21,258 bases of DNA from a virus (taxonomy: Duplodnaviria; Heunggongvirae; Uroviricota; Caudoviricetes): positions 1 through 21,258 of the IMG/VR virus record IMGVR_UViG_2778261303_000012. One strand, given 5' to 3'. The notes beneath the pieces were generated by a model. The model was given only the letters and a program-made list of their open reading frames with translations. It was not told the DNA's origin and searched no databases. The position numbers and the translations under genes are program-made. Below, in pieces: positions 1,320-21,258 of this stretch (position 1 is its first letter; each line of letters begins with the position of its first letter).

Positions 1320-2624
1320 GCTGAGGGATCCCATAAATCAGCGCTAATAAACCAACACCATATTCTGGTAGGTTTTGGCGAGATGATTAAGAACTGTGCT
1401 CAGCACTGTTCGCCTTAAAATTAGCGGGGAGTGTCGTAAAACATTCTCCGCTAACGTCAGATACGAGATTACCCGCCGTGTTTTAATGCTGTTGGCCTGA
1501 TATCTCAGATGTAATCCTTTGTTTTCAGCATGATAGCCAATAAGCCACTGTACAATTGTACTCAGCGTCGCCAGTAGGTTCAGTACCAGCATTCTTCCCA
1601 CTGAACGACTGTAACTGTCACGCAGAGCGAACCCGAAGCGCTCGCTTTTTTCATCCCGGAAGTTCTGCTCGATTTGCATGCGACGGCTGTACAATTTCAT
1701 GATTTCCCGGGCTTTAAAGGCTACTGCTAAAGATAAGCCACGGTTCTTTTTCCGAAGAACGTCAATCATTATTTGGGATTTACGCTCTATGCGGCAACGT
1801 GAACGGCGATTCTTCCGGTCTTTCGGCTCTTTTTTATGTAAATAAAAATGGCCATCACACCGGGCATATTCCGAACGGGCAAGTGTACTCGTCCCCAGAT
1901 ATTCTGGTTTGCTTCTGGCCTGTAATTCCTGACGCCTGAACCAGTACTCACCTTTGCTGTCCAGCTGCATCTGGATATTTCCCCTGACACGACCGATAAA
2001 ATCCCATCCGAGTGACCTTATATGCCGGAACCATGCACTCTGGAAACCCGCATCGGTAACTATTATGACTCTGGCCACAGGGTTTACAGCCTCGGCAAGG
2101 GCATCCAGGAAGTTTTTTTGTATCTGCTAGTTCTGCTGTTTTTCTGACGGGACTATCCAGATTAACAGGGGAAGCGAGCGTCCATCGCAGAGCAGGCTGG
2201 CTCGGAGCACATGATGTTCCTGAGATGGATATCCACTCCAGTCAACGGCGATGACACAAAGAGATAGCTGGCTAGTCAGAATGGCAATAATATTTCTGAA
2301 AATCAGTGGGATATCGCGGTGAAGAGATTCATTACCGAGCAGTCGGTCAACGCGTTCGATTTTATTTCTGACCTGAGCCGGGCCAGGTAAATAACGCCCG
2401 ATGCTGGTCAGCGTCAGTGATGCGCCATTGATGAGAGCGATGGTGGCATCCAGCAAAGCATTTTGTCGGTATTTATGAAACGGTGCTAACGCATCGTGGA
2501 AAAAATTCTGACATACTTGTCGAGCAGACATAGAAGTGATCTCATTGATTGGTTGCACAAATCAGTAGATCACAAAACTCTATGACTGTCTTTTTTACCC
2601 GCCAATTACTGGGGATTCCTCAGC
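1320..2624 (-). mobile_element. IS4-family (IS10-like) insertion sequence, about 1.3 kb
   Basis: Imperfect terminal inverted repeats: left end CTGAGGGATCCCA at 1321, right end GGGGATTCCTCAG at 2611..2623 (reverse complement CTGAGGAATCCCC), resembling IS10 ends as recalled. A 10–11 bp direct repeat (c)gcctattggc flanks the element at 1309..1319 and 2624..2634, consistent with a target-site duplication. The internal ORFs align to IS10 transposase from memory (e.g. YS+RMQIE, DAGF, IDRLLGN motifs). Confidence 0.8.
1344..2558 (-). pseudogene. IS10-like transposase interrupted by a single in-frame TAG
   Basis: ORFs 2127..2558 (143 aa, N-terminal part) and 1344..2078 (244 aa, C-terminal part) are in the same frame. 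The only break is an amber codon (cta on plus strand at 2127..2129). The 16 codons between them translate to QIQKNFLDALAEAVNP, which continues the IS10 transposase alignment; total length about 403 codons, matching a ~402-aa IS10-type transposase. Confidence 0.8.
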
Positions 2625-2867: not shown

Positions 2868-3617
2868 ATGCTCATTCCAACATCTCTATCAAAACAACCA
2901 GTAATCGAAGCTGCTTTCGAAATGCGTTTTTCTAAAGAAACACAAATATCGGAAATAGTTCCAGGGTTTCTTTTTCACGCTCTAGGTTGTACAAAACCAG
3001 TAATTAGTTTACCACCCAGTCAAATACCTAAAAATGTTCGTGAGGGAGATGAACAATTACATTACGCAGTTGTCAGTCGCCTCGAAATCGAAGGGTACTA
3101 TATTGGACTAAGTGACCATGGTGTTGTTGTATCCACCAGCACCAAATATCAAGGGTGGAGTCATTTTAGAGAAAAAATCATTCATGTATTAAATGAGCTT
3201 AACAAATTAAATTTAAATGACAACATCATCCGCTACTCATTAAAGTATGTAGATTTTTTCCCAAAAGAAGACGATTCTAATTTATTTGATAAGCTAAACG
3301 TCAGCTTAAATATGGCTGGCGAGTCTATGTCTAATTATCCGATCAATATCAGAATCGATAAAAATGAAGGCGCATTTCTAAATATAATTCAAATATTATC
3401 TCATGCTTTAGTCATGTCAGATAATGGAGAATTTAATAAAAAAGGACTAATCCTAGACATAGACAGTATTAGGCAAATCACTAATACTGATGAAATAGAT
3501 AAGTTTAAAAACGAACCCAAAAAAATTCTTGATGATCTTCACTCCTGTAATAAATTAGCTTTCTTTAGTTGCCTTAAAGAGTCAACAATTCAAGAACTAG
3601 AACCATCCTACAAATAG
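2868..3617 (+). CDS. hypothetical protein, cassette gene A (249 aa)
   Basis: Long ORF, first gene of a three-gene AT-rich operon. No catalytic motif recognised. An unverified recollection of TIGR04255-like proteins is too weak to use as a call. RBS is weak and an alternative downstream start is possible. Confidence 0.6.
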   Translation: MLIPTSLSKQPVIEAAFEMRFSKETQISEIVPGFLFHALGCTKPVISLPPSQIPKNVREGDEQLHYAVVSRLEIEGYYIGLSDHGVVVSTSTKYQGWSHFREKIIHVLNELNKLNLNDNIIRYSLKYVDFFPKEDDSNLFDKLNVSLNMAGESMSNYPINIRIDKNEGAFLNIIQILSHALVMSDNGEFNKKGLILDIDSIRQITNTDEIDKFKNEPKKILDDLHSCNKLAFFSCLKESTIQELEPSYK

Positions 3618-3632
3618 AAATGGTGGTATGAT

Positions 3633-3977
3633 ATGTATCCGTCTCATCATGTTTATCGAGCTCAACTTCAAGTATTAACTTTGGTTTTATATGGTCTGCA
3701 TATAACAGCATTAACAGACATTGCCCAAAATCAACAGCATGGTCCTCAACAAAGTTTAATCGTCAAAAATCACGCTTTGGAGTATAAGTCTTCAACTACC
3801 GATTCAGTTCATTCCATCACACAAACATATAAAGCAGGGAGCACAATCTCAGTTGATCAAAGACTTGCAGTCTCGATGACAAACTTTTATGAAAAATTAT
3901 CAACAAACCAGGTGTCTTTAGGCAGTGAAATAAATAAAGTCGTTCATGCTTCACTGTGGGATTTATACTTGGATTAA
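3633..3977 (+). CDS. hypothetical protein, cassette gene B (114 aa)
   Basis: ORF 15 nt after gene A stop, same strand and AT-rich composition; a GGTGG-like Shine-Dalgarno precedes the ATG. No family recognised. Confidence 0.5.
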   Translation: MYPSHHVYRAQLQVLTLVLYGLHITALTDIAQNQQHGPQQSLIVKNHALEYKSSTTDSVHSITQTYKAGSTISVDQRLAVSMTNFYEKLSTNQVSLGSEINKVVHASLWDLYLD

Positions 3978-3980
3978 GTG

Positions 3981-4595
3981 ATGAGTAATAACATTTTTGA
4001 TATCGAGAAATTCAAAGATCAAATTCCATATTATTTAACAGCTCCTCAAAAAGAAGGGCTAATAAATGCACTTAGAGATTTCCCTGAAAACACTAACTAC
4101 TACCTTACCAATTATCATGATGATCTGAAAAATGCTGCACTTCAGGGAGATATATTTAAGGAGCTTACAGTATATTCAATTAAAGGGACTAAAAAAACAC
4201 GAGGAATTATATTAAGCAACAGTTGCGATATAGATACAAGTAATAATCGTGATGTGCCAATGCGTGCAGTCTTTGCTCCGTTAGTAAGTTTATCTAAGTT
4301 CGAAGCTATTCTTCTCTCCAACGGAGTTTCTAAGACTTCAATAGATAGCAAAATTGATGCTATAAGGAAGCAGTTAATTACTAATATTTTTTATCTTCCT
4401 GAATCAGACAACTTAGAAGAATGCATCGTTTTTCTTGATGATGTATACCAATTACCAACGGAAGAATTACAAAAACTCTTGAATGATAAATGCAAAGCCA
4501 TAACTTTAAGTCAAGTTGGTTTCTACATTTTACTATTCAAAATATCTATTCACTTTTGTAGATTCCATGAAAACATACAACGATTCGATCATTAA
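3981..4595 (+). CDS. hypothetical protein, cassette gene C (204 aa)
   Basis: ATG at 3981 directly follows gene B stop (TAA 3975..3977; a GTG at 3978 is an alternative start), suggesting translational coupling. Followed immediately by a terminator hairpin. No family recognised. Confidence 0.55.
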   Translation: MSNNIFDIEKFKDQIPYYLTAPQKEGLINALRDFPENTNYYLTNYHDDLKNAALQGDIFKELTVYSIKGTKKTRGIILSNSCDIDTSNNRDVPMRAVFAPLVSLSKFEAILLSNGVSKTSIDSKIDAIRKQLITNIFYLPESDNLEECIVFLDDVYQLPTEELQKLLNDKCKAITLSQVGFYILLFKISIHFCRFHENIQRFDH

Positions 4596-6809: not shown

Positions 6810-7199
6810 TCAGGCGGCTGCACCCGCCGTTTTCTCGTACTTACTGATAGTGATCTCGACCTTCCCTTTCGGGATAACCGGTCCCCACTCCACCAGCATT
6901 CTTTTCACCTGACTGTCGTCTTCCCACACACCCGCGTGGGTCAGGGCGTCAAACAGCGCCTTGTTATAGTTGTCCAGATCGCGGATCCGGTTATCCGGAG
7001 GAAACAACACGATCTCCACTGAAGCAGGTGCCGACGTTGGTTTCGGCAGACGACGTAACTGCTCAACTATTGCTGCGCACGCCGCGCTCTGGAATTTTCG
7101 CCCCGCCGAGCTTATCAGGCTCTTACCAGCAAACGCCCCTTTGTTGGGGTGTCGCCAGTACGTGTTCACGCTGGGCGGAAAAGGCAGGATCAGCTTCAT
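6810..7199 (-). CDS. rusA: RusA-family Holliday junction resolvase
   Basis: 129 aa. LILPFPPSVNTYWRH...DLDNYNKALFDALTHAGVWEDDSQV matches the RusA signature (PPS.N.Y, DxDN, D-rich C-terminal half). ATGA overlap with the upstream gene. Confidence 0.85.
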   Translation of the reverse strand: MKLILPFPPSVNTYWRHPNKGAFAGKSLISSAGRKFQSAACAAIVEQLRRLPKPTSAPASVEIVLFPPDNRIRDLDNYNKALFDALTHAGVWEDDSQVKRMLVEWGPVIPKGKVEITISKYEKTAGAAA

Positions 7200-7522
7200 A
7201 CTTTCAGGTCCCTCTCATGTAACCAGTGGGTTGCACGCAGCCTTGCGTTTTCCTCACCGGCAAGCAGTGCGCGGATAATCCCGACCGCCTCGCTGTCGTC
7301 GTCCTTCACCGCGGTATGAAGCGTTATCCACCGGGCCACGCCACGCTTTATCGTGATGACGCCTTTTTTCTCCAGTGCGCGAAGATGCTCCACCGCTGCA
7401 TTCACTGAACGGTATCCCAGCATGGTTGCCACCTCCTGATTGGTTGGCGGGAAGCCACGTTCTTTCTGATAAGAAATCAGCATATCCAACACCTGCTGCT
7501 GGCATTGAGTTAACGTCGTCAT
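7196..7522 (-). CDS. LexA N-terminal DNA-binding-domain-only protein (winged HTH), no peptidase domain
   Basis: 108 aa. LTQCQQQVLDMLISYQKERGFPPTNQEVATMLGYRSVNAAVEHLRALEKKGVITIKRG closely follows the LexA DNA-binding domain pattern; the ORF ends before any S24 domain. ATGA overlaps at both ends. Confidence 0.6.
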   Translation of the reverse strand: MTTLTQCQQQVLDMLISYQKERGFPPTNQEVATMLGYRSVNAAVEHLRALEKKGVITIKRGVARWITLHTAVKDDDSEAVGIIRALLAGEENARLRATHWLHERDLKV

Positions 7523-8172
7523 GCCGCCATCTCCCTGACCAGTTTTTCCGCCTGCTGGCGAACCTGCGCCAGAAACGCCTCACCACATGCCTCAAGTTCA
7601 TCGCGCCCGATGTAGCTGATTGCCGGTCCCTTCCAGGTCTTGTCAAAAACAGCAATAGCACCAGCGAAAAAAGCTCCTGTCGGCACCTGCTTCTCGTCCT
7701 TCGGGATAAACCAGGCAGGCAGTTCAAAACCAATACGCCCGCGAATAAAAGCAATATGGTCCGCATCTTCCGGCCACCACACTTCGCTGGTGGCAGCTTT
7801 GATCAGGAAAACATAGCGCCCGCCCTTATCACGCATGGCACTGGCATGTTTCATGATGTAACGCATGCCGGTGATGTATTGCCCCTCATGCTGACTGGCG
7901 CGGCTGTATGGAGGATTACCAAAGGCAGCACCTTTAAGCTCCGCAAGACGTTCTGACCAGTCATGCGCCAGCGCGTTGTCTTCCGCCGTGTAATACGCGG
8001 CACATTTGGCGTTATCACCGTCAGTGAACAGATCCAGAACAAACGGACCAAACAGGGTGTTAATTCCCCAGAAAATGTTGTCCGGCGTGCGCCACTGATC
8101 GCCCACTTCCTTCAGTTCATGGGCTGGTTTGTTCCGCAGTTCCACCAGCGCCTGGCAATATTTATTACTCAT
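7519..8172 (-). CDS. phage Dam-type DNA N6-adenine methyltransferase
   Basis: 217 aa with FGNPPYSR (NPPY catalytic motif IV) and overall resemblance to phage Dam-family (PF05869-like) enzymes. ATGA overlap with upstream gene. Confidence 0.8.
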   Translation of the reverse strand: MSNKYCQALVELRNKPAHELKEVGDQWRTPDNIFWGINTLFGPFVLDLFTDGDNAKCAAYYTAEDNALAHDWSERLAELKGAAFGNPPYSRASQHEGQYITGMRYIMKHASAMRDKGGRYVFLIKAATSEVWWPEDADHIAFIRGRIGFELPAWFIPKDEKQVPTGAFFAGAIAVFDKTWKGPAISYIGRDELEACGEAFLAQVRQQAEKLVREMAA

Positions 8173-9481: not shown

Positions 9482-9702
9482 GCAGCACCTCCGAGATGCT
9501 TCATGTTTTTTCCGGAGCGAAAGGCTATAAGCGGCATACTGACGCGGTAACTACGGCCCAGCGGTTCACAAATCACCTTCTGACATTCACGGTCAACCAG
9601 GCTAACACGTAGAACATGCCCTTCAGGTGTGGTGTACCACTGACCCGGACGAGGACAACGGAAAGTCTGATTGGTAAACCGTTTGAAAATATTCCGGATC
9701 AT
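9478..9702 (-). CDS. hypothetical 74-aa protein, translationally coupled between rha and the replication gene
   Basis: ATGA overlaps at both ends (Rha stop / its ATG at 9699..9702; its stop / replication-gene ATG at 9478..9481). Contains a CxxxP...C pattern; no family recognised. Confidence 0.5.
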   Translation of the reverse strand: MIRNIFKRFTNQTFRCPRPGQWYTTPEGHVLRVSLVDRECQKVICEPLGRSYRVSMPLIAFRSGKNMKHLGGAA

Positions 9703-10256
9703 TTGCGCCCCCTTACCTCTGAAGGGTTCAGCAACAAATTTATGAGGCAGGCCAGTGCCGAAGCATCATTAATATAGTCATACAAGCTAACAGCCAGCGG
9801 AGATTCGGCTTTTGCCAACATAGGATAAAGCTGCTGCAGCCAGACCTGATGAATTGATGAAATGTAGGAATAGAGAACGCTGGCGTTATGTGCAACGTCG
9901 CTCAGTACAGAGGGCTTTGAAAGCTGTTTCTCCATCTGGTTAAAGGCATTGATGTATGCCTCTTTGAACTGGGCAGCACGTTTACCCGTGAAACCCATAG
10001 CAAGAAACGCAAAGCCGTCGCGAGTGATTTGATAGCAAGGAAGCTTGCGTGTACCACCGTTCGGTTGATTTACCGAAATAGATGTCTCCGCAAAATTGCG
10101 GGCACAAAACTCAGGGGAACAATCCAGAGTACGGATCTTTTTCAGCACATCGTCGTGACGCTTGGAGAAGAAGTTTGCAACAGCTAAAGAAGTGGTAACG
10201 GCTTGGCCGTTGTCAATGGTGATTTCAGGTTGAGTAAGGGCTGGGATCGTAGCCAT
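9699..10256 (-). CDS. Rha-family phage regulatory protein
   Basis: Start set at ATG 10256 (GGAGG RBS 8 nt upstream), giving 185 aa: MATIPALTQPEITIDNGQAVTTSLAVANFFSKRHDDVLKKIRTL...GTRKLPCYQITRDGFAFLAMGFTGKRAAQFKEAYINAF is the Phage_pRha signature. The 499-aa ORF in the track is a read-through artefact. Confidence 0.8.
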   Translation of the reverse strand: MATIPALTQPEITIDNGQAVTTSLAVANFFSKRHDDVLKKIRTLDCSPEFCARNFAETSISVNQPNGGTRKLPCYQITRDGFAFLAMGFTGKRAAQFKEAYINAFNQMEKQLSKPSVLSDVAHNASVLYSYISSIHQVWLQQLYPMLAKAESPLAVSLYDYINDASALACLINLLLNPSEVRGRK

Positions 10257-10586
10257 GATGGCAGCCTCCGTTGACAGTGAAAAACTTCCACCACCGGAAA
10301 CGCCAATTTCACTGGTGGTGAACTGGACGGGGTTGGCGTAACCGGCGTCAACGGAGACCGGCGCACCTTTCGGTGCCCCCGTCCAGCCCACCATAATCTG
10401 GATGTGAACAAATGCGGACGATAAAAAAGACGCTGGCGCGTCATACATCGCCGTTGACAATTTCAGGACGCCAATCCCGGCACCTGATTTTTCAGGTGCT
10501 GAAGCAGTGTATACTCGAAATAAATCATGATCAATAATGATGCGAGGATGGGGGTTAACCGTTATCTCAAAATAAGGAGATACAAC

Positions 10587-10928
10587 GTGAGATACCAACT
10601 TTTGGCTAACAGCAGCAGAGGTGATGGTTTTTACGATGTAACCATCAGCGATAATAGCGGCAACCTCGAAATAGAATGCACTTGTATGGCTGGTGAAATG
10701 GGTACAATGTGTAAGCACCGTATTGCCGTTATTACAGGAAAATATGGAAATATCATAGATATTGATGATCCTGAAAACGCCGATGCAAAACTGGCAACCG
10801 ACCTGATTGCTAAATATGGAATTACAGAGCAATACCTTGCTCTTGCTAAAGAACTCGAAGACCTGAAAAAGAGGTTCAAGGTTGAAGAAAAGGCTATCAA
10901 ACTGAGAATTAATGCCTTGGCAGGGTAA
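10587..10928 (+). CDS. small SWIM-type zinc-finger protein, antisense moron within the early operon
   Basis: Start at GTG 10587 preceded by AAGGAG with 7-nt spacing; 113 aa. Contains CTCMAGEMGTMCKHRIAV, i.e. CxC-x9-CKHxxAV, the canonical SWIM zinc-finger pattern. Lower GC than flanking genes and opposite orientation. Confidence 0.6.
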   Translation: MRYQLLANSSRGDGFYDVTISDNSGNLEIECTCMAGEMGTMCKHRIAVITGKYGNIIDIDDPENADAKLATDLIAKYGITEQYLALAKELEDLKKRFKVEEKAIKLRINALAG

Positions 10929-10965
10929 GCTCTCAGTTAAAATTTGTTTCATTTGGTTAGCTCTC

Positions 10966-11198
10966 ATCCTTCCCCTTACGGCAGAAGAGTTCAGTAAAGA
11001 ATTGATTAAACCAGCAAGCGCCGCTGCGTCATTGATGCGGTCATAAAGGCAATTCAGGCCCACAGTCAGGTAAAATTCTCTGTGGTTAATTACAGCCAGG
11101 TGATTTAGTAATCTGCATTCATGCCGTAACAACAGATGTTCAGAGACGCAGACCACCAGCTGTTGCGACAAACGGTTATTTGCCGTTAAACTGTTCAT
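10966..11198 (-). other. short ORF / relic resembling the 3' end of rha, translationally coupled to the CII-like gene
   Basis: ATG at 11198 overlaps the CII-like stop (ATGA). Encoded ...LYDRINDAAALAGLINSLLNSSAVRGR parallels the Rha C-terminus ...LYDYINDASALACLINLLLNPSEVRGRK, and the DNA at 10967..11060 is about 70% similar to 9705..9800. The reading frame then runs open across the antisense of the SWIM gene, so its true end is unclear. Confidence 0.35.
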
Positions 11199-12102: not shown

Positions 12103-12795
12103 ATGAACATAGGAAATCGAGTCAGACAACTTCGCCAGGCGAAGAACATGAAAATCGCCGATCTCGCTGAAGCAATAGGAGTGGATGCGGCGAATATCTC
12201 ACGCCTGGAAACAGGTAAGCAGAAACAATTCACTGAACAAGCCCTGAGTAATATTGCCAGGAGCTTAGGTGTTGATATAGCTGATCTCTTTACCTCAGAC
12301 TTCAAAAGTAATACTGTATGTAAAAACAGTATTAGTGAGGATGTTGCGCAGGTGAAGGATGTATTCCGTATTGAAATGCTGGATGTCAGTGCCAGTGCGG
12401 GAAATGGCCTTATCCAGGGCGGTGATGTCATTGATGTGATTCATGCCATTGAATACAGAACTGATAATGCTGTATCGATGTTTGCCGGACGGCCAGCCAA
12501 TCACATTAAAGTTATCAACGTTCGTGGGGACAGTATGTGTCCAACCATTGAGCCAGGAGATCTCATCTTCGTTGATGTCAGTATCAATCAGTTTGATGGA
12601 GATGGTATCTATGTATTTGGTTTTGATGATAAAATTTATGTCAAACGACTACAAATGATACCTGACAAACTACTGGTGATTTCTGATAACCAGATTTACC
12701 GTGAATGGGGAATTACCAGCGAAAATGAACACCGGTTTATGGTCTTTGGAAAGGTCTTAATCAGCCAGTCACAAACCCTTAAGCGACACAATTAA
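12103..12795 (+). CDS. CI-type prophage repressor (HTH_XRE + S24 LexA-like autopeptidase)
   Basis: 230 aa. N-terminal HTH (RVRQLRQAKNMKIADLAEAIGVDAANISRLETGKQ); C-terminal S24 fold with catalytic Ser in VRGDSMCPTIEPGD and Lys in YVKRL; candidate Ala-Gly cleavage site in SASAGNG. Confidence 0.85.
   Translation: MNIGNRVRQLRQAKNMKIADLAEAIGVDAANISRLETGKQKQFTEQALSNIARSLGVDIADLFTSDFKSNTVCKNSISEDVAQVKDVFRIEMLDVSASAGNGLIQGGDVIDVIHAIEYRTDNAVSMFAGRPANHIKVINVRGDSMCPTIEPGDLIFVDVSINQFDGDGIYVFGFDDKIYVKRLQMIPDKLLVISDNQIYREWGITSENEHRFMVFGKVLISQSQTLKRHN
12309..12334. promoter_or_regulatory. LexA-box-like palindrome inside the cI coding sequence
   Basis: TAATACTGT-ATGTAAAA-ACAGTATTA: perfect 9-bp inverted arms with CTGT-N8-ACAG geometry; the core TACTGTATGTAAAAACAGTA matches the E. 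coli SOS box consensus TACTGTATATATATACAGTA at 16 of 20 positions. Confidence 0.45.
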
Positions 12796-18353: not shown

Positions 18354-18389
18354 TTTTCCCGGGTGCAGCCGGTTTTGATGGAGAAAATT

Positions 18390-18662
18390 ATGAACACCTT
18401 GTTTTTACTGATGGCTGAATTCAATACCCCTAACATTGAACTCTCAGCAGTTAGCCAAAAGTACTTTGGCATGAGTCCAGCCACGGCAGAAGCAAAAGCA
18501 AACGCTTGTAAGTTGCCCGTTCCAACATATCGCATCGGCACATCACAAAAAGCAAAACGTTGCATCAATATTCAGGATCTTGCGGAATACATAGACAAAA
18601 GACGAGAAGAAGGACGAGCTGAGTGGGAAAAGGTCAGAACGGATAAACAAAAATATAACTAA
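18390..18662 (+). CDS. excisionase-like / PrtN-family small DNA-binding protein
   Basis: ATG 18390 with GGAG RBS (alternative ATG at 18378), 90 aa. KYFGMSPATAEAKANACKLPVPTYRIGTSQKAKRCINIQDLAEYIDKRREEG resembles PrtN/excisionase-like proteins (recollection). Last gene of the early-left operon. Confidence 0.55.
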   Translation: MNTLFLLMAEFNTPNIELSAVSQKYFGMSPATAEAKANACKLPVPTYRIGTSQKAKRCINIQDLAEYIDKRREEGRAEWEKVRTDKQKYN

Positions 18663-18675
18663 ACTAAGACCATGA

Positions 18676-18704
18676 ATAACCCGTGTATATACGGGTTATT
18701 TTTC
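18676..18704 (+). terminator. rho-independent terminator after the excisionase-like gene
   Basis: AACCCGT-gtatat-ACGGGTT hairpin followed by ATTTTTC; overlaps the stop codon of the convergent membrane-protein gene. Confidence 0.55.
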
Positions 18705-19244
18705 TTTATCGCCATCTTTTCTAGATTTGAACAATCCACTAACAACGAAGCCAACCAAACCAACAATACTAATTGTACTTGTTCCCAGTAATGCAACGAT
18801 TGCTTCAACTGGCGGCTTTCCTTCATGAGCAATAAGAAATGATACAAACATTCCGGCTACAAATAAGCACCAACACGACATAAACCAAACCGTGAATGAG
18901 GCCATTTTTGTCCGAAGCTCATTGTCTATTTCTTTACCAGTTGCGTCAGCTATCTTATCCCGTACTTGTGACTTGAGCATATCAAGCTGAGCTTGAAGAC
19001 TGTCCATTCTGTTCTGCTGCATAAACTCATGCAATGCACCAGTATTAGAACCAAACTCTTCTGCCTCCAGAATAGCCTTATTTTCTGAAGAAGAATCATC
19101 ATCGCGCTCATGATTAGACGGCTCAAATGCGGATTCAAAAGCCTGCTCTTGGCTGTCAGTAGAGTTTAAGGATGCTTCAGAGCGACCATTTTCAACACCT
19201 GCGGCCGCTCCGATCAGTTTATAGATATCTGAATTATGAGACAT
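18696..19244 (-). CDS. membrane protein with acidic N-terminal region, coiled coil and C-terminal two-TM hairpin (candidate toxin/effector)
   Basis: 182 aa. N-terminal about 60 residues acidic and low complexity, predicted coiled coil (LQAQLDMLKSQVRDKIADATGKEIDNELRTK), then two hydrophobic helices (FTVWFMSCWCLFVAGMFVSFLIA; AIVALLGTSTISIVGLVGFVVSGLF) and a basic tail. Starts 22 nt after the Panacea-domain gene. Confidence 0.6.
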   Translation of the reverse strand: MSHNSDIYKLIGAAAGVENGRSEASLNSTDSQEQAFESAFEPSNHERDDDSSSENKAILEAEEFGSNTGALHEFMQQNRMDSLQAQLDMLKSQVRDKIADATGKEIDNELRTKMASFTVWFMSCWCLFVAGMFVSFLIAHEGKPPVEAIVALLGTSTISIVGLVGFVVSGLFKSRKDGDKEK

Positions 19245-19266: not shown

Positions 19267-19740
19267 TCAGAGGCCCTGACATTGCTGTCGGTTATTCAAT
19301 AAATCATGATAATAAGCCTTGATCGCATCATTTGAGATGATCGACGAGCCAATACCATTATAAGCTTGTGACCAAGGCGTACCTGGCATATGAGTTAGAG
19401 TTGATAACTCAATTCCATTTTTCGAGCCGTAAAACTTATAAACAGCCCCTATAATGCTCTCTGCTTGCGGATCCATAGTAACGATGCCACCAAAAGGAGC
19501 TACTGCTACATTCGTAACAGGTTTATTCCCATAGTCTTTGAAAGCATCGTACATTCCAGGAATAACTGGACCGTACTTCCACGCGGAGACACATTCATTG
19601 AGCAAAGGCTTACCTGTTAATGCTAAATAGTAACCATGGGCAATATAAGTAAGCTTCTGAAGTTGCATGTGGGTCAGAGGATTATGATGTTGGTTTCCCA
19701 ACGTTATGAATTTATTGGCTATTTGTACCGGACTGTACAT
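19267..19740 (-). CDS. Panacea-domain (DUF4065) protein, PanA/SocA-like antitoxin candidate
   Basis: Start at ATG 19740 with AGGAGG RBS, 157 aa: MYSPVQIANKFI....LTHMQLQKLTYIAHGYYLALTGKPLLNECVSAWKYGPVIPGMYDAFKDYG matches the DUF4065/Panacea signature (...KLQKLLYYAQG..LA..G.PLF.E...AW..GPV.P..Y) as recalled. Confidence 0.7.
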   Translation of the reverse strand: MYSPVQIANKFITLGNQHHNPLTHMQLQKLTYIAHGYYLALTGKPLLNECVSAWKYGPVIPGMYDAFKDYGNKPVTNVAVAPFGGIVTMDPQAESIIGAVYKFYGSKNGIELSTLTHMPGTPWSQAYNGIGSSIISNDAIKAYYHDLLNNRQQCQGL

Positions 19741-20440
19741 AACCACCCTCCTCATTACACTGAATGTGCAAACAGTATCATCACTGTTATCTCAACCTAA
19801 CACGAACAAAAAAGTTTTGGAAGATTGCAAGAGCAATTCACTGTGTTTATAACCAGCAAATGACTGTACATATACACAGGTTACAAATTGGTGGCGAATT
19901 ATACCTGCAGAAGTTGCGATGTCAACAAAGCGACCATCACAGTGTTTTGCATCTCACACTGTTATGACAAAAAATCTTTTGATAGGTTCCCAATAGGCTC
20001 CCACAAAACACATAACCAATTGTTTTTCAAAAACGATACATCCTATCGAGCATTGGTGCAACGCTAAACCGACCACTCCAGTGAACGTCAGTTTTTTCAG
20101 GCATTGCGCTGGTTTGGTTGATTTTTTGCATTTCAGAATTACCGTGCATTTTCAAATGTAGAGATTATTTTATCGATATATCATGGGGTTATGTTATTCA
20201 GCATCACTGTTCAGGAGGCTCAATAACGGGGTACTATACCATAACAACAGGAAGCGCCTGTCTCATTGCAAAAGAAAATTGAGATCCTCTCAAGGCATGA
20301 AGCTCTCACGAAGTGATGGAAATAATCTTATTAGCCGTTAGCTTTGTTAAGGCCAATGATAAACAATCCAGGTTCGACGATAAATAAAAATCACACATTA
20401 AACTCCGGTGATATCTCTCCCTGCTAATAGCACTGATAGA

Positions 20441-20511: not shown

Positions 20512-21258
20512 TTATTTCTCCGATTTAACCCCGAATAAATCATAAATTAATTTAGAAGTGTCTGTATATATTTTAATCTTTTCCTTTGAGTTTGGGTCAA
20601 ACGACTTAGCAAAGTCAATTAATTTCGGTGCAGCATCTCGCATTTTGCTTAAAATATCAGGGGCGAGCTTTCCTTCATTCACCAGATGTGACATCTTATC
20701 CAGATAGCCATCAAAATTCATTTCTCCCCCATCTGCCAGACGCTTCATCTCTCCCAGGTACTTCTTCATATCACGTTGAGATAACTCTTCAAACTGAGCT
20801 GTCAGATAGTTCTCATTATCATCATTAATATTCACTTTTTCTGCTCCTGCTAAATCTGTGTAGGCACTAGAGTATGAAAGTGAAATCAACAGCGAAGCGA
20901 ATAATTTTAAGCTGTTGTCATCATATTCCTGACATGCATTAACAAACGTTAAAAAACCAGAACCTATTGCTTGCAAATGTATATTCGCTAAAGGTTCATT
21001 ATCTTTAGATTCCTCATAAAAAAGCTGAACCGTGGAGGGAAGGCCATTCTTGGTTTCTACATCAAAAGTATATCGTTCTATGGGCGTTGCATCTTTATTA
21101 TCCTCAGGATTACATATACTATTAATCGCAAAATGAAAAATAGCCCGATCAACAACTGATGCAATAAATTCACGATCGTTTAATTCCTCATCAGTGCAAT
21201 CTCCAATATACTTATTAACCCACTCTTTGAGATTAGTTATTTGCTCAATTAAAAACAC
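20512..21258 (-). CDS. hypothetical AT-rich protein, 5'-truncated by the window edge
   Basis: 248 codons open to the last base of the window (the track 'M' is a GTG at the edge, so the true start probably lies outside). AT-rich composition unlike the prophage core; no family recognised. Confidence 0.5.
   Translation of the reverse strand: MFLIEQITNLKEWVNKYIGDCTDEELNDREFIASVVDRAIFHFAINSICNPEDNKDATPIERYTFDVETKNGLPSTVQLFYEESKDNEPLANIHLQAIGSGFLTFVNACQEYDDNSLKLFASLLISLSYSSAYTDLAGAEKVNINDDNENYLTAQFEELSQRDMKKYLGEMKRLADGGEMNFDGYLDKMSHLVNEGKLAPDILSKMRDAAPKLIDFAKSFDPNSKEKIKIYTDTSKLIYDLFGVKSEK

What the first reader, a model, noticed from the sequence alone, without database searches (positions are those of the whole stretch)
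7196..7522. LexA DNA-binding domain without the autoproteolytic domain, encoded in the early operon
The 108-aa protein matches the LexA N-terminal winged HTH but stops before any S24 peptidase domain, so it could occupy SOS boxes without being cleavable after DNA damage. It is translationally coupled between the Dam-like methyltransferase and rusA. Together with the SOS-box-like site inside cI, this suggests a phage-encoded layer of SOS-network manipulation.
Basis: partly seen in the sequence, partly recalled or inferred. Interest (0 to 1): 0.45.

Follow-up and report, generated by a model that had tools for sequence, protein, structure and literature searches.

The report
Phage LexA-like DNA-binding protein, uncleavable
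A lambdoid prophage gene encodes the DNA-binding half of the SOS repressor LexA plus a small helical tail but no self-cleaving domain; the family is catalogued and sits in about 41% of complete E. coli genomes, yet I found no test of its suspected role as a damage-proof SOS-box binder.

Summary
ORF 7196..7522 (-) encodes 108 aa. Residues 1-64 match Pfam LexA_DNA_bind end to end (E 9e-19). An AlphaFold model superposes on the E. coli LexA N-terminal domain (rmsd 1.0-1.2 A, about 50% identity). There is no S24 peptidase domain. ATGA overlaps couple the gene to Dam upstream and RusA downstream.

It is not a truncated pseudogene. It belongs to a length-conserved family (PHROG 362, "LexA family transcriptional regulator") found in 2232 of 5426 complete E. 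coli genomes and in many Enterobacteriaceae prophages, always in the same module between the replication genes and Q. A conserved C-terminal two-helix hairpin, a likely dimeriser, follows the winged HTH.

Four of the five LexA base-contacting residues are kept (S39, N41, A42, E45). E44 is never acidic in the family, so SOS-box binding is plausible but unproven. The only characterised analogue, GIL01 gp6, evolved its own operator.

The cI SOS box is real and conserved. It also occurs in a phage that lacks this gene, so the proposed link is not specific.

This copy carries a private G65W change at a near-invariant glycine.

Verdict: a known, annotated family with an untested function. Interest is moderate.

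The parts
7196..7522 (-). Whole gene for the 108-aa LexA-like protein (PHROG 362; NCBI name 'LexA family transcriptional regulator')
   Evidence: ORF. Pfam PF01726 E 8.8e-19. PHROG 362 matched full length, 1-106/106, E 1.4e-57. A 100% identical gene is annotated in E. coli RM8082.
7316..7522 (-). Residues 1-69: LexA-type winged helix-turn-helix (H6-22, H28-35, H40-52, strands 56-58 and 66-68)
   Evidence: AlphaFold2 secondary structure. Foldseek top hits 1lea and 3jso, rmsd 1.0-1.2 A. 42% identity over 90 aa to the lexA annotated in E. coli RM8082, whose prophage copy of this gene is 100% identical, E 8e-21.
7367..7408 (-). Residues 39-52: recognition helix SVNAAVEHLRALEK (E. coli LexA: SPNAAEEHLKALAR)
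   Evidence: Alignments. Contact residues taken from PMC3091678. S39 and N41 are invariant in the family.
7328..7330 (-). Codon 65 is TGG (Trp), where 16 of 17 family members and E. coli LexA have Gly. It is a private G65W substitution.
   Evidence: Alignment A1 shows G65 nearly invariant. Only 1 of 5426 E. coli genomes is 100% identical at nucleotide level, and the next best are 99.4%. The sequence was read.
7211..7300 (-). Residues 75-104: conserved C-terminal two-helix hairpin (H75-88, H93-103). It has no counterpart in LexA and is the putative dimerisation element.
   Evidence: AlphaFold2 pLDDT 86-88 for these blocks. The region is conserved down to 37% identity, with A97 and L101 invariant. 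No PDB sequence relative was found.
7519..7522 (-). ATGA overlap: Dam stop codon and LexA-like start codon
   Evidence: ORF coordinates and sequence. SfV, mEp460, mEp390 and the Cronobacter prophage show the same 4-nt coordinate overlap with the upstream gene.
7196..7199 (-). ATGA overlap: LexA-like stop codon and RusA start codon
   Evidence: ORF coordinates and sequence. SfV, mEp460, mEp390 and the Citrobacter prophage show the same 4-nt coordinate overlap with RusA.
7519..8172 (-). Upstream partner: phage Dam-type N6-adenine methyltransferase (context)
   Evidence: PF05869 E 9.7e-46. PADLOC MTase_II.
6810..7199 (-). Downstream partner: RusA Holliday-junction resolvase (context)
   Evidence: PF05866 E 9.5e-15. 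PHROG 34.
12312..12331 (.). Candidate target only: near-consensus LexA box TACTGTATGTAAAAACAGTA inside the cI linker. No link to this gene has been shown.
   Evidence: Perfect CTGT-N8-ACAG. PWM score 25.8, against 19.6 and 20.8 for the boxes in front of lexA in E. coli RM8082. Conserved in Eeyore cI although the flanks have diverged.
19758..19881 (.). Candidate targets only: three LexA-box-like sites (19862..19881, 19839..19858, 19758..19777) downstream of a 12/12 sigma-70 promoter at 19925..19898 (-). They lie in front of a Panacea/SocA-domain gene.

Best explanation
The ORF encodes a small DNA-binding regulator that DNA damage cannot inactivate. It has a LexA-type winged HTH (residues 1-69), a short linker and a conserved two-helix C-terminal hairpin. 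It has none of LexA's S24 autoprotease and dimerisation domain. It is made from the delayed-early rightward (PR) transcript, translationally coupled to Dam and RusA, so it appears only after infection or prophage induction.

Most likely mechanism, with the inferred steps marked. The hairpin replaces the S24 domain as dimeriser (inferred). The dimer binds palindromes built from CTGT-type half-sites, that is SOS boxes or close variants of them (inferred from the near-identical recognition helix). Because it has no catalytic domain, RecA* cannot trigger its removal by autocleavage (this follows from the absent domain). It would therefore keep or re-impose repression at LexA-controlled promoters while host LexA is being destroyed. 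Candidate targets are host SOS genes, LexA-controlled morons of its own prophage and LexA-controlled antirepressors of rival prophages.

Shown: the fold, the domain content, the coupling, the conserved module and the wide distribution under purifying selection. Not shown: DNA specificity, dimerisation, and whether it represses or activates. This particular copy carries G65W in the wing and may be weakened.
For: The fold and HMM are LexA N-terminal domain. The protein is 42% identical over 90 aa to the lexA annotated in E. coli RM8082, whose prophage copy of this gene is 100% identical, and about 50% identical over the wHTH. The recognition helix differs from E. coli LexA only at P40V, E44V and K48R within residues 39-50. 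S39, N41, A42 and E45 are identical, and S39 and N41 are invariant in the family. By contrast, the residue critical for DNA binding in GIL01 gp6, K38, aligns with N41, which is LexA-like here.

The family is real and constrained. Lengths are conserved at 106-112 aa. dN is 0.24-0.65 with saturated dS, giving dN/dS of 0.35 or less wherever it could be computed. The gene is present in 2232 of 5426 complete E. coli genomes, with up to 4 copies per genome. The module PerC-(Dam)-LexA-like-RusA-(KilA-N)-DUF968-Q holds down to 47% identity in Cronobacter, Citrobacter and mEp390.

The prophages examined that carry the gene and have an identifiable repressor have RecA-cleavable S24 repressors. The protein is therefore produced exactly when host LexA is depleted. 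Phages of this group carry good LexA boxes, and only the N8 spacing is enriched: 3 against 0.27-0.32 expected in the window, and 5 against 0.68 in mEp460. In Edwardsiella phage EPP-1, a 71-aa homologue (RSPNAAEDHLKALE) lies in an operon whose promoter spacer is a strong LexA box.

Established knowledge: after cleavage the cell targets LexA for degradation by ClpXP and Lon (Neher et al. 2003, as cited in PMC6590174). From my own recollection of the older LexA literature, the isolated N-terminal fragment still binds operators specifically.
Against: No experiment on this family turned up in six full-text searches. E44, one of the five base-contacting residues, is Val here and is never acidic in the aligned phage-family proteins that carry the C-terminal hairpin (the tail-less EPP-1 homologue keeps it). 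E45 becomes G, D, L or I in distant members. Host LexA proteins that read CTGT-N8-ACAG keep both Glu residues, to my knowledge. The specificity may therefore have shifted, as it did in GIL01 gp6.

Dimerisation through a different element could change the preferred half-site spacing. No alternative spacing is enriched either. No LexA box with PWM score of 12 or more lies within 8 kb of the gene in the Cronobacter and Citrobacter prophages or in the mEp390 locus, so phage-borne SOS boxes are not a constant companion. G65W at a near-invariant glycine in the wing may impair this copy.
Confidence: 0.4

Rival explanations
1. A phage-specific regulator with its own operator. As with GIL01 gp6, a captured LexA DNA-binding domain has drifted to a distinct palindrome. 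It controls phage promoters, for example late or moron genes, as activator or repressor, and has little or no effect on host SOS boxes.
For: GIL01 gp6 is a truncated LexA homologue that binds GaCACAn-nTGTGaC at -43.5 of the late promoter P3 and activates it. In the enterobacterial family position 44 is never Glu, position 45 varies, and overall identity falls to 37-50% among hosts (all Enterobacteriaceae) whose own LexA proteins are, to my knowledge, almost identical. This suggests the DNA surface is free to diverge. The gene always travels with Q and DUF968 in one module. Standalone LexA_DNA_bind proteins of 65-150 aa are common in unrelated phages.
Against: The E. coli clade keeps a recognition helix almost identical to LexA's, including N41 at the position where gp6 has its specificity-determining K38. 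No conserved non-SOS palindrome was found: no spacing other than N8 is enriched for CTGT/ACAG, and the N4 hits in L008 and L009 lie at unrelated positions. BLASTP finds no alignment to gp6, so the precedent is an analogy and not orthology.
Confidence: 0.35
2. The family is functional, but this copy is a weakened or dead allele riding in a decaying prophage. G65W disrupts the wing or strand 3 of the wHTH, so in this genome the protein does little.
For: G65 is Gly in 16 of 17 aligned family members and in E. coli LexA, and Ala in gp6. The Trp allele is private: one of 5426 genomes is identical, and the large 90%-identity clusters have Gly. The prophage shows decay. An IS4-family transposase sits in the late region (1344..2078). 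No integrase lies between the PrtN-type excisionase and the dusA' junction. The RM8082 copy has frameshifted genes. Against mEp460 there are 4 amino-acid differences and almost no synonymous ones.
Against: The reading frame is intact with both coupling overlaps preserved. AlphaFold still predicts the wHTH with pLDDT 76 for residues 61-70, although AlphaFold is insensitive to point mutations. Four substitutions are too few to infer relaxed selection.
Confidence: 0.25
3. This is not a LexA relative at all. It is either a chance ORF or a member of another wHTH family such as MarR, Crp or Rrf2.
For: There are weak sub-threshold hits to HTH_Crp_2 (E 0.002, below cutoff) and to a PADLOC CARF-associated wHTH (E 4e-4). 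Some database entries are named 'Rrf2 family'.
Against: The full-length PF01726 match is far above cutoff. LexA structures take the first 12 Foldseek ranks at rmsd 1-2.5 A, while MarR and MepR hits have rmsd 8-11 A. Thousands of conserved homologues exist.
Confidence: 0.01

Closest known systems
E. coli LexA repressor (N-terminal domain, residues 1-69; PDB 1lea, 3jso)
   Same: The same winged-HTH fold (rmsd about 1 A) with about 50% identity. The numbering is gap-free to residue 69. The recognition helix is SxNAAxEHLxAL, with S39, N41, A42 and E45 identical.
   Different: There is no S24 peptidase and dimerisation domain and no Ser119/Lys156 dyad. The protein scores below the TIGR00498 cutoff. 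E44 is Val. It has a C-terminal helical hairpin that LexA lacks. It is encoded in a phage early operon and is not an autoregulated chromosomal gene.
LexA(1-84), the N-terminal fragment left after RecA*-stimulated autocleavage
   Same: A LexA DNA-binding domain without the catalytic domain. This is the form the cell targets for ClpXP and Lon degradation after cleavage (Neher et al. 2003, cited in PMC6590174).
   Different: The phage protein is a stable gene product with an added hairpin. It does not end in the VAA-type ClpX signal; it ends in LKV. The 'AGE' that aligns with the LexA A84-G85 cleavage site is not conserved in the family.
Bacillus tectivirus GIL01 gp6 (66 aa, truncated LexA homologue)
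   Same: A phage-encoded LexA DNA-binding domain without an S24 domain, expressed early in the lytic programme.
   Different: gp6 is the wHTH only, with no C-terminal hairpin. BLASTP detects no similarity. Its recognition helix has diverged from its host's LexA (K38 at the N41 position). It binds its own palindrome and activates the late promoter, whereas the enterobacterial protein keeps a LexA-like helix. The function of the enterobacterial protein is untested.
Mobile-element anti-SOS factors (plasmid PsiB, phage and host DinI, Listeria phage AriS)
   Same: They set the precedent that mobile elements damp the host SOS response, in AriS's case to control cohabiting prophages (PMC9043618 abstract; PsiB in PMC6590174). 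mEp460, Eeyore and a Klebsiella relative also carry dinI.
   Different: PsiB and DinI act on RecA filaments, and AriS is an Ant/KilAC-type two-domain protein whose mechanism I did not examine. None of them is a LexA DNA-binding-domain mimic. This is a functional analogy only.

Membership tests
Canonical LexA repressor (NCBIfam TIGR00498 equivalog) | N-terminal LexA-type winged HTH (PF01726) | tested here: met
   PF01726 E 8.8e-19, positions 1-64 of 65. Foldseek top hits are LexA N-terminal domains.
Canonical LexA repressor (NCBIfam TIGR00498 equivalog) | C-terminal S24 peptidase and dimerisation domain with the Ser119/Lys156 dyad | tested here: not met
   The protein ends at residue 108 and has no PF00717 hit. 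The TIGR00498 alignment stops at position 91 of 203. The downstream DNA encodes RusA.
Canonical LexA repressor (NCBIfam TIGR00498 equivalog) | Score above the curated equivalog cutoff | tested here: not met
   67.8 bits against a cutoff of 110.95.
Canonical LexA repressor (NCBIfam TIGR00498 equivalog) | Conserved Ala-Gly autocleavage site | tested here: not met
   'LLAGE' aligns with LexA 'VAAGE'. The two positions vary across the family (AN, VG, ER, TR, SG, DD, CS, EE, DT) and no catalytic domain is present.
Canonical LexA repressor (NCBIfam TIGR00498 equivalog) | Binds CTGT-N8-ACAG SOS boxes and represses SOS genes | not testable with these tools
   Indirect evidence only: 4 of 5 base-contact residues are kept, and E44 is Val.
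Enterobacterial prophage LexA-DBD family (PHROG 362; NCBI 'LexA family transcriptional regulator', about 106-112 aa) | Full-length match to the family profile | tested here: met
   PHROG 362 E 1.4e-57, 1-108 against 1-106/106. 96-98% identity to clusters with thousands of members.
Enterobacterial prophage LexA-DBD family (PHROG 362; NCBI 'LexA family transcriptional regulator', about 106-112 aa) | wHTH plus a conserved C-terminal two-helix extension (…IRALLxxExxAxxxAxxWL…) | tested here: met
   Alignment A1, with A97 and L101 invariant. AlphaFold helices 75-88 and 93-103.
Enterobacterial prophage LexA-DBD family (PHROG 362; NCBI 'LexA family transcriptional regulator', about 106-112 aa) | Position in the module between the replication genes and Q, next to RusA and DUF968 | tested here: met
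   Window. mEp460, SfV, mEp390, Cronobacter and Citrobacter.
Enterobacterial prophage LexA-DBD family (PHROG 362; NCBI 'LexA family transcriptional regulator', about 106-112 aa) | Near-invariant Gly65 in the wing | tested here: not met
   This copy has Trp65. The deviation is at allele level and does not exclude family membership.
GIL01 gp6-type late-gene activator | LexA DNA-binding domain only, phage-encoded | tested here: met
   The protein here has an extra 40-aa tail.
GIL01 gp6-type late-gene activator | Detectable sequence relationship to gp6 and a gp6-type recognition helix (K38) | tested here: not met
   BLASTP finds no alignment. K38 aligns with N41, which is Asn here as in LexA.
GIL01 gp6-type late-gene activator | Binds its own palindrome overlapping the -35 of the late promoter and activates it | not testable with these tools
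   No conserved non-SOS palindrome was found. This is not decisive.

The most novel reading that the evidence does not exclude
A very common prophage gene, present in about 41% of complete E. coli genomes and in several Stx2 phages, encodes a RecA-proof LexA mimic. After induction or infection it re-occupies SOS boxes once host LexA has been destroyed. This would shut down host SOS functions, LexA-controlled morons and the LexA-controlled antirepressors of competing prophages. The result would be a phage-imposed 'second LexA' that shapes polylysogen competition, SOS mutagenesis and possibly Shiga-toxin output.
Probability: 0.3. Interest if true: 0.65.

Novelty: new member of a known kind. Interest (0 to 1): 0.38.

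Why it matters
If the protein binds SOS boxes, many E. coli lysogens, including Stx2-phage lysogens, carry a damage-insensitive copy of the SOS repressor's DNA-binding half. It would be switched on exactly when LexA is destroyed. That would alter how long and how strongly the SOS regulon stays on during prophage induction: mutagenic polymerases, sulA, colicins, and LexA-controlled antirepressors and morons of co-resident prophages. It would therefore bear on prophage competition, antibiotic-induced mutagenesis and toxin release. If the protein instead has its own operator, it is a second, independent case, after tectivirus gp6, of phages recycling the LexA domain as a lytic-cycle regulator. 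In either case the gene is abundant, small and easy to test, and I found no published test of it.

Tried and rejected
1. Unrelated wHTH family (MarR, Crp, Rrf2). Rejected by the Pfam, PDB and Foldseek results.

2. Truncated lexA pseudogene. Rejected. Length is conserved at 106-112 aa across genera, the C-terminal hairpin is conserved, the coupling overlaps are intact and dS is saturated with low dN/dS.

3. The 'AGE' remnant of the LexA cleavage site acting as a substrate or decoy for LexA or CI proteases. Rejected because those positions are not conserved.

4. Known anti-phage defence component. PADLOC gave only an insignificant wHTH hit.

5. A specific functional pairing with the cI-internal SOS box. 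Not supported. Eeyore has the box without the gene, and SfV, Cronobacter and Citrobacter carriers lack the box. Every phage record holding this cI allele at 90% nucleotide identity or more also has the gene, but the two lie 5 kb apart and are probably linked by descent.

6. An alternative half-site spacing for CTGT/ACAG, N0 to N20 and everted. Only N8 is enriched, and the N4 pairs in L008 and L009 look random.

7. A host-tracking test, asking whether the phage protein mimics each host's LexA. It has no power, because all the family clusters that carry a source name are from Enterobacteriaceae, whose LexA proteins, to my knowledge, all read the same E. coli-type box.

8. A profile of the C-terminal hairpin against PDB sequences. 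Nothing significant was found.

9. The dam promoter annotated in SfV. Its -35 is not conserved in the window and it is weak.

10. The afdb50 fold library was unavailable, and the Zhang et al. 2010 LexA-DNA paper was not held.

11. Literature searches for any study of this enterobacterial protein found none.
Full report
OBSERVATION

Residues 1-64 match Pfam LexA_DNA_bind (PF01726) from profile position 1 to 64 of 65 (E 8.8e-19, 67.5 bits, cutoff 23.7). There is no Peptidase_S24 hit. The full-length LexA equivalog TIGR00498 scores 67.8 bits against a cutoff of 110.95 and aligns only to LexA positions 1-91. phmmer against PDB sequences finds E. coli LexA at E about 1e-14.

An AlphaFold2 model built on a 17-sequence family alignment has mean pLDDT 82. 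It shows H6-22, H28-35, H40-52, strands 56-58 and 66-68, and then two further helices at 75-88 and 93-103. Foldseek against the PDB places LexA structures in the first twelve ranks (1lea, 3jso, 3jsp, 1jhh; rmsd 1.0-1.2 A over 67-69 residues; 48-50% identity).

Both gene junctions are ATGA overlaps. Positions 7519..7522 hold the Dam stop and the LexA-like start, and 7196..7199 hold the LexA-like stop and the RusA start. A GGGAG motif lies about 9 nt before the start. The gene is on the same strand as cro, a cII-like gene, the Ash/Rha and replication genes, PerC/YfdN, Dam, RusA, KilA-N, DUF968 and Q. No promoter-like site lies just upstream. It therefore belongs to the rightward early operon of a lambdoid prophage.

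WHAT IT IS

The window is 97-99% identical at nucleotide level to phage mEp460, SfV, SfII, Stx2c, Stx2a and Stx2k phages and others over the PerC-Dam-LexA-like-RusA-KilA block. In those records the gene is annotated variously as 'LexA DNA binding domain protein', 'LexA-like protein', 'repressor, lexA family' or 'unknown' (SfV orf42). It matches PHROG 362 ('transcriptional repressor') over its full length (E 1e-57).

megablast finds the gene in 2232 of 5426 complete E. coli genomes, with up to four copies per genome. It is nearly always annotated between a phage N6-adenine methyltransferase or PerC gene and RusA.

An exhaustive HMMER search finds full-length relatives at 37-52% identity. Those that carry a source name come from Cronobacter, Kosakonia, Enterobacter, Cedecea, Klebsiella, Salmonella and Citrobacter. 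Their gene order is the same: PerC-Dam-LexA-like-(one ORF)-RusA-DUF968-Q in Cronobacter, PerC-LexA-like-RusA-KilA-N-DUF968-Q in Citrobacter, and replication gene-LexA-like-RusA-DUF968-Q in mEp390. A Klebsiella phage and Edwardsiella phage EPP-1 also place it just upstream of DUF968 and Q.

Distant pairs have dN 0.24-0.65 with saturated dS (dN/dS of 0.35 or less wherever it could be computed). This is a protein family under long-term purifying selection and not a broken lexA.

They form a conserved helix-turn-helix hairpin (consensus EAVxIIRALLAGEENARxRAxxWLxERG, with A97 and L101 invariant). The hairpin has no sequence relative in the PDB. Canonical LexA dimerises through its S24 domain, so this hairpin is the obvious candidate dimeriser. 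That is an inference, not a result.

HOW CLOSE IS THE DNA-READING SURFACE TO LexA

The five E. coli LexA residues reported to contact DNA are S39, N41, A42, E44 and E45 in helix III (PMC3091678). The phage protein aligns without gaps to residue 69 and has S39, N41, A42, V44 and E45. The helix reads SVNAAVEHLRALEK against SPNAAEEHLKALAR.

Across the family S39 and N41 are invariant and A42 is mostly kept. Position 44 is never acidic (V, A, F, T, L or I). Position 45 is Glu in most members, but G, D, L or I in the most distant ones. The E. coli clade therefore very probably still reads a CTGT-like half-site. One specific contact has been systematically lost, and the family as a whole is not locked to LexA's specificity.

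The 'LLAGE' that HMMER aligns to the LexA cleavage site 'VAAGE' is not conserved, and I attach no meaning to it.

PRECEDENT

In six full-text searches I found no study of the enterobacterial protein. The one characterised phage LexA-DBD-only protein is GIL01 gp6 (66 aa). It binds a palindrome of its own at -43.5 of the late promoter P3 and activates it. Its Lys38 is essential for DNA binding (PMC6182141).

I retrieved gp6. BLASTP finds no alignment to the window protein. In a multiple alignment K38 falls on LexA N41, which is Asn in the window protein. gp6 therefore shows that such proteins can drift to new operators, while the protein here has drifted much less.

Standalone LexA_DNA_bind proteins of 65-150 aa are common in predicted viral proteomes.

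SOS BOXES IN THE WINDOW AND IN RELATIVES

The window has three perfect CTGT-N8-ACAG sites against 0.27 expected. I scanned with a position weight matrix built from about 20 E. coli LexA sites that I recalled from the literature. I used it only for ranking. It recovers the two boxes in front of lexA in E. coli RM8082 at 19.6 and 20.8. Four window sites score 15 or more, against 0.08 in shuffles.

- One site is TACTGTATGTAAAAACAGTA at 12312..12331 (score 25.8), inside the linker of the S24-type cI (12103..12795).
- Three lie at 19758..19881, just downstream of a perfect TTGACA-16-TATAAT promoter (19925..19898, minus strand). They sit in front of a Panacea/SocA-domain gene (19267..19755) and a 182-aa ORF, at the prophage end next to a dusA fragment.

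Relatives carry further boxes. mEp460 has two in front of dinI. mEp460 and SfV have one over the start of a late-region methyltransferase. Only the N8 spacing is enriched.

These are most simply host-LexA sites. They show that the phage is wired into the SOS system. They do not show that the 108-aa protein binds them.

THE PROPOSED LINK TO THE cI BOX

The box is under selection. In phage Eeyore, whose cI is 72% identical, the surrounding linker has diverged while TACTGTATGTAAA…CCAGTG is retained at the same offset of +209. Eeyore has no LexA-like gene; its region upstream of Q holds PAPS reductase, a methyltransferase, Ant and DUF968.

Conversely, SfV has the gene but no box in its cI. No site scoring 12 or more lies within 8 kb of the gene in the Cronobacter and Citrobacter prophages or in the mEp390 locus.

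Every phage record holding this cI allele at 90% nucleotide identity or more also has the gene. The two loci are 5 kb apart in close relatives, so common descent explains this co-occurrence. The pairing is therefore not specific.

One suggestive case remains. In Edwardsiella phage EPP-1 a 71-aa homologue without the hairpin (RSPNAAEDHLKALE) lies in an operon Rha-like, LexA-like, DUF968, Q-like. The promoter-like element of that operon (CTGAAA-17-TACAAT) has a strong LexA box as its spacer. This resembles the autoregulated host lexA. The arrangement is not seen in Klebsiella Kp4866-6 or in the Proteus phage.

THIS COPY

Residue 65 is Trp (codon TGG at 7328..7330). It is Gly in 16 of 17 family members and in LexA. 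Only one complete E. coli genome (RM8082, cattle) carries the identical gene.

The prophage also shows decay. An IS4-family transposase sits in the late region. No integrase lies between the PrtN-type excisionase and the dusA' junction. The RM8082 copy has frameshifts. The allele may therefore be weakened, but this cannot be judged in silico.

MECHANISM AND CONFIDENCE

Best-supported reading (0.40). The protein is a RecA*-insensitive regulator produced from delayed-early transcripts. It dimerises through its hairpin (inferred) and binds CTGT-type palindromes (inferred). It thereby keeps or re-imposes repression at LexA boxes while host LexA is cleaved. The prophages examined that carry the gene and have an identifiable repressor have RecA-cleavable S24 repressors, so the protein appears exactly in LexA-depleted cells. 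The cell normally targets cleaved LexA for ClpXP and Lon degradation (Neher et al. 2003, cited in PMC6590174), which shows that removing the cleavage products matters.

Main rival (0.35). The protein has its own operator, as gp6 does.

Orthogonal caveat (0.25). This allele is impaired by G65W.

NOVELTY AND SCORE

The domain observation is already in public annotation, and the protein class (phage LexA-DBD-only proteins) is known. The conserved C-terminal hairpin, the LexA-like recognition helix and the extreme prevalence in E. coli, including Stx2 phages, define an uncharacterised subfamily. I rate it a new member of a known kind, with interest 0.38. The uncleavable LexA mimic reading has a probability of about 0.3 and would deserve about 0.65 if shown.

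Noticed in passing
window 12312..12331 (inside cI, 12103..12795 +): A near-consensus LexA box, TACTGTATGTAAAAACAGTA, lies in the linker-coding part of the S24-type cI repressor. It is conserved at the same offset in the 72%-identical cI of phage Eeyore although the flanking linker has diverged. No promoter-like element was detected around it, and its role is unexplained (roadblock to cI transcription, or an internal or antisense promoter).
   Followed up: partly
window 19758..19925, with genes 19267..19755 (-) and 18696..19244 (-): A perfect 12/12 sigma-70 promoter (TTGACA-16-TATAAT, 19925..19898, minus strand) is followed by three LexA-box-like sites. It drives a Panacea/SocA-domain gene and a 182-aa ORF with no Pfam match. 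This is a probable SOS-inducible moron, possibly toxin-antitoxin-like, at the prophage end. It is found in about 75 complete E. coli genomes.
   Followed up: partly
window 7328..7330 (-): A private G65W substitution (TGG instead of GGG) at a near-invariant glycine of the LexA-type wing. Only E. coli RM8082 has the identical allele among 5426 genomes.
   Followed up: partly
window about 20045..20149 (-) and 20512..21258 (-); L005 36490..37098: The prophage abuts a 5' fragment of dusA, a known integration hotspot, next to a DUF2713 gene. In RM8082 this places it only about 4 kb from the host lexA-dinF operon. No integrase gene lies between the PrtN-type excisionase (18363..18662) and the junction.
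   Followed up: partly
L003 3226..3254 (Edwardsiella phage EPP-1): A promoter-like element has a strong LexA box (AACTGTATGTAAATCCAGTA) as its spacer. It precedes an operon Rha-like, 71-aa LexA-DBD-only protein, DUF968, Q-like. This looks like an SOS-triggered lytic switch module that contains a LexA mimic.
   Followed up: partly
L004 41021..41040 (mEp460); L012 12171..12190 (SfV): An identical LexA box, TACTGTAAAAATAAACAGTG, overlaps the first codons of a late-region DNA methyltransferase gene downstream of Q in both phages. mEp460 dinI (L004 22993..23241) has two boxes upstream.
   Followed up: no
window 1344..2078 (-), 2868..4595 (+): An IS4-family (DDE_Tnp_1) transposase, and a three-gene plus-strand insert (a TIGR04255-family protein and two unknowns), lie between Q and the lysis region. 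This is the position where Stx phages carry stx. PADLOC found no match for the two insert genes that were scanned (2868..3617 and 3633..3977).
   Followed up: partly
representative search hits P0130, P0135, P0148, P0151, P0153 and others: Several proteins of 140-350 aa contain two LexA_DNA_bind-like stretches in tandem. This would give a 'single-chain dimer' of the LexA domain. Their origin was not examined.
   Followed up: no
window 9699..11198 (-): A 499-aa early gene combines Ash and Rha (antirepressor-type) domains between the cII-like gene and the replication gene. It contains the third perfect CTGT-N8-ACAG (11080..11095), which scores poorly as a LexA box and is probably a chance match.
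   Followed up: no
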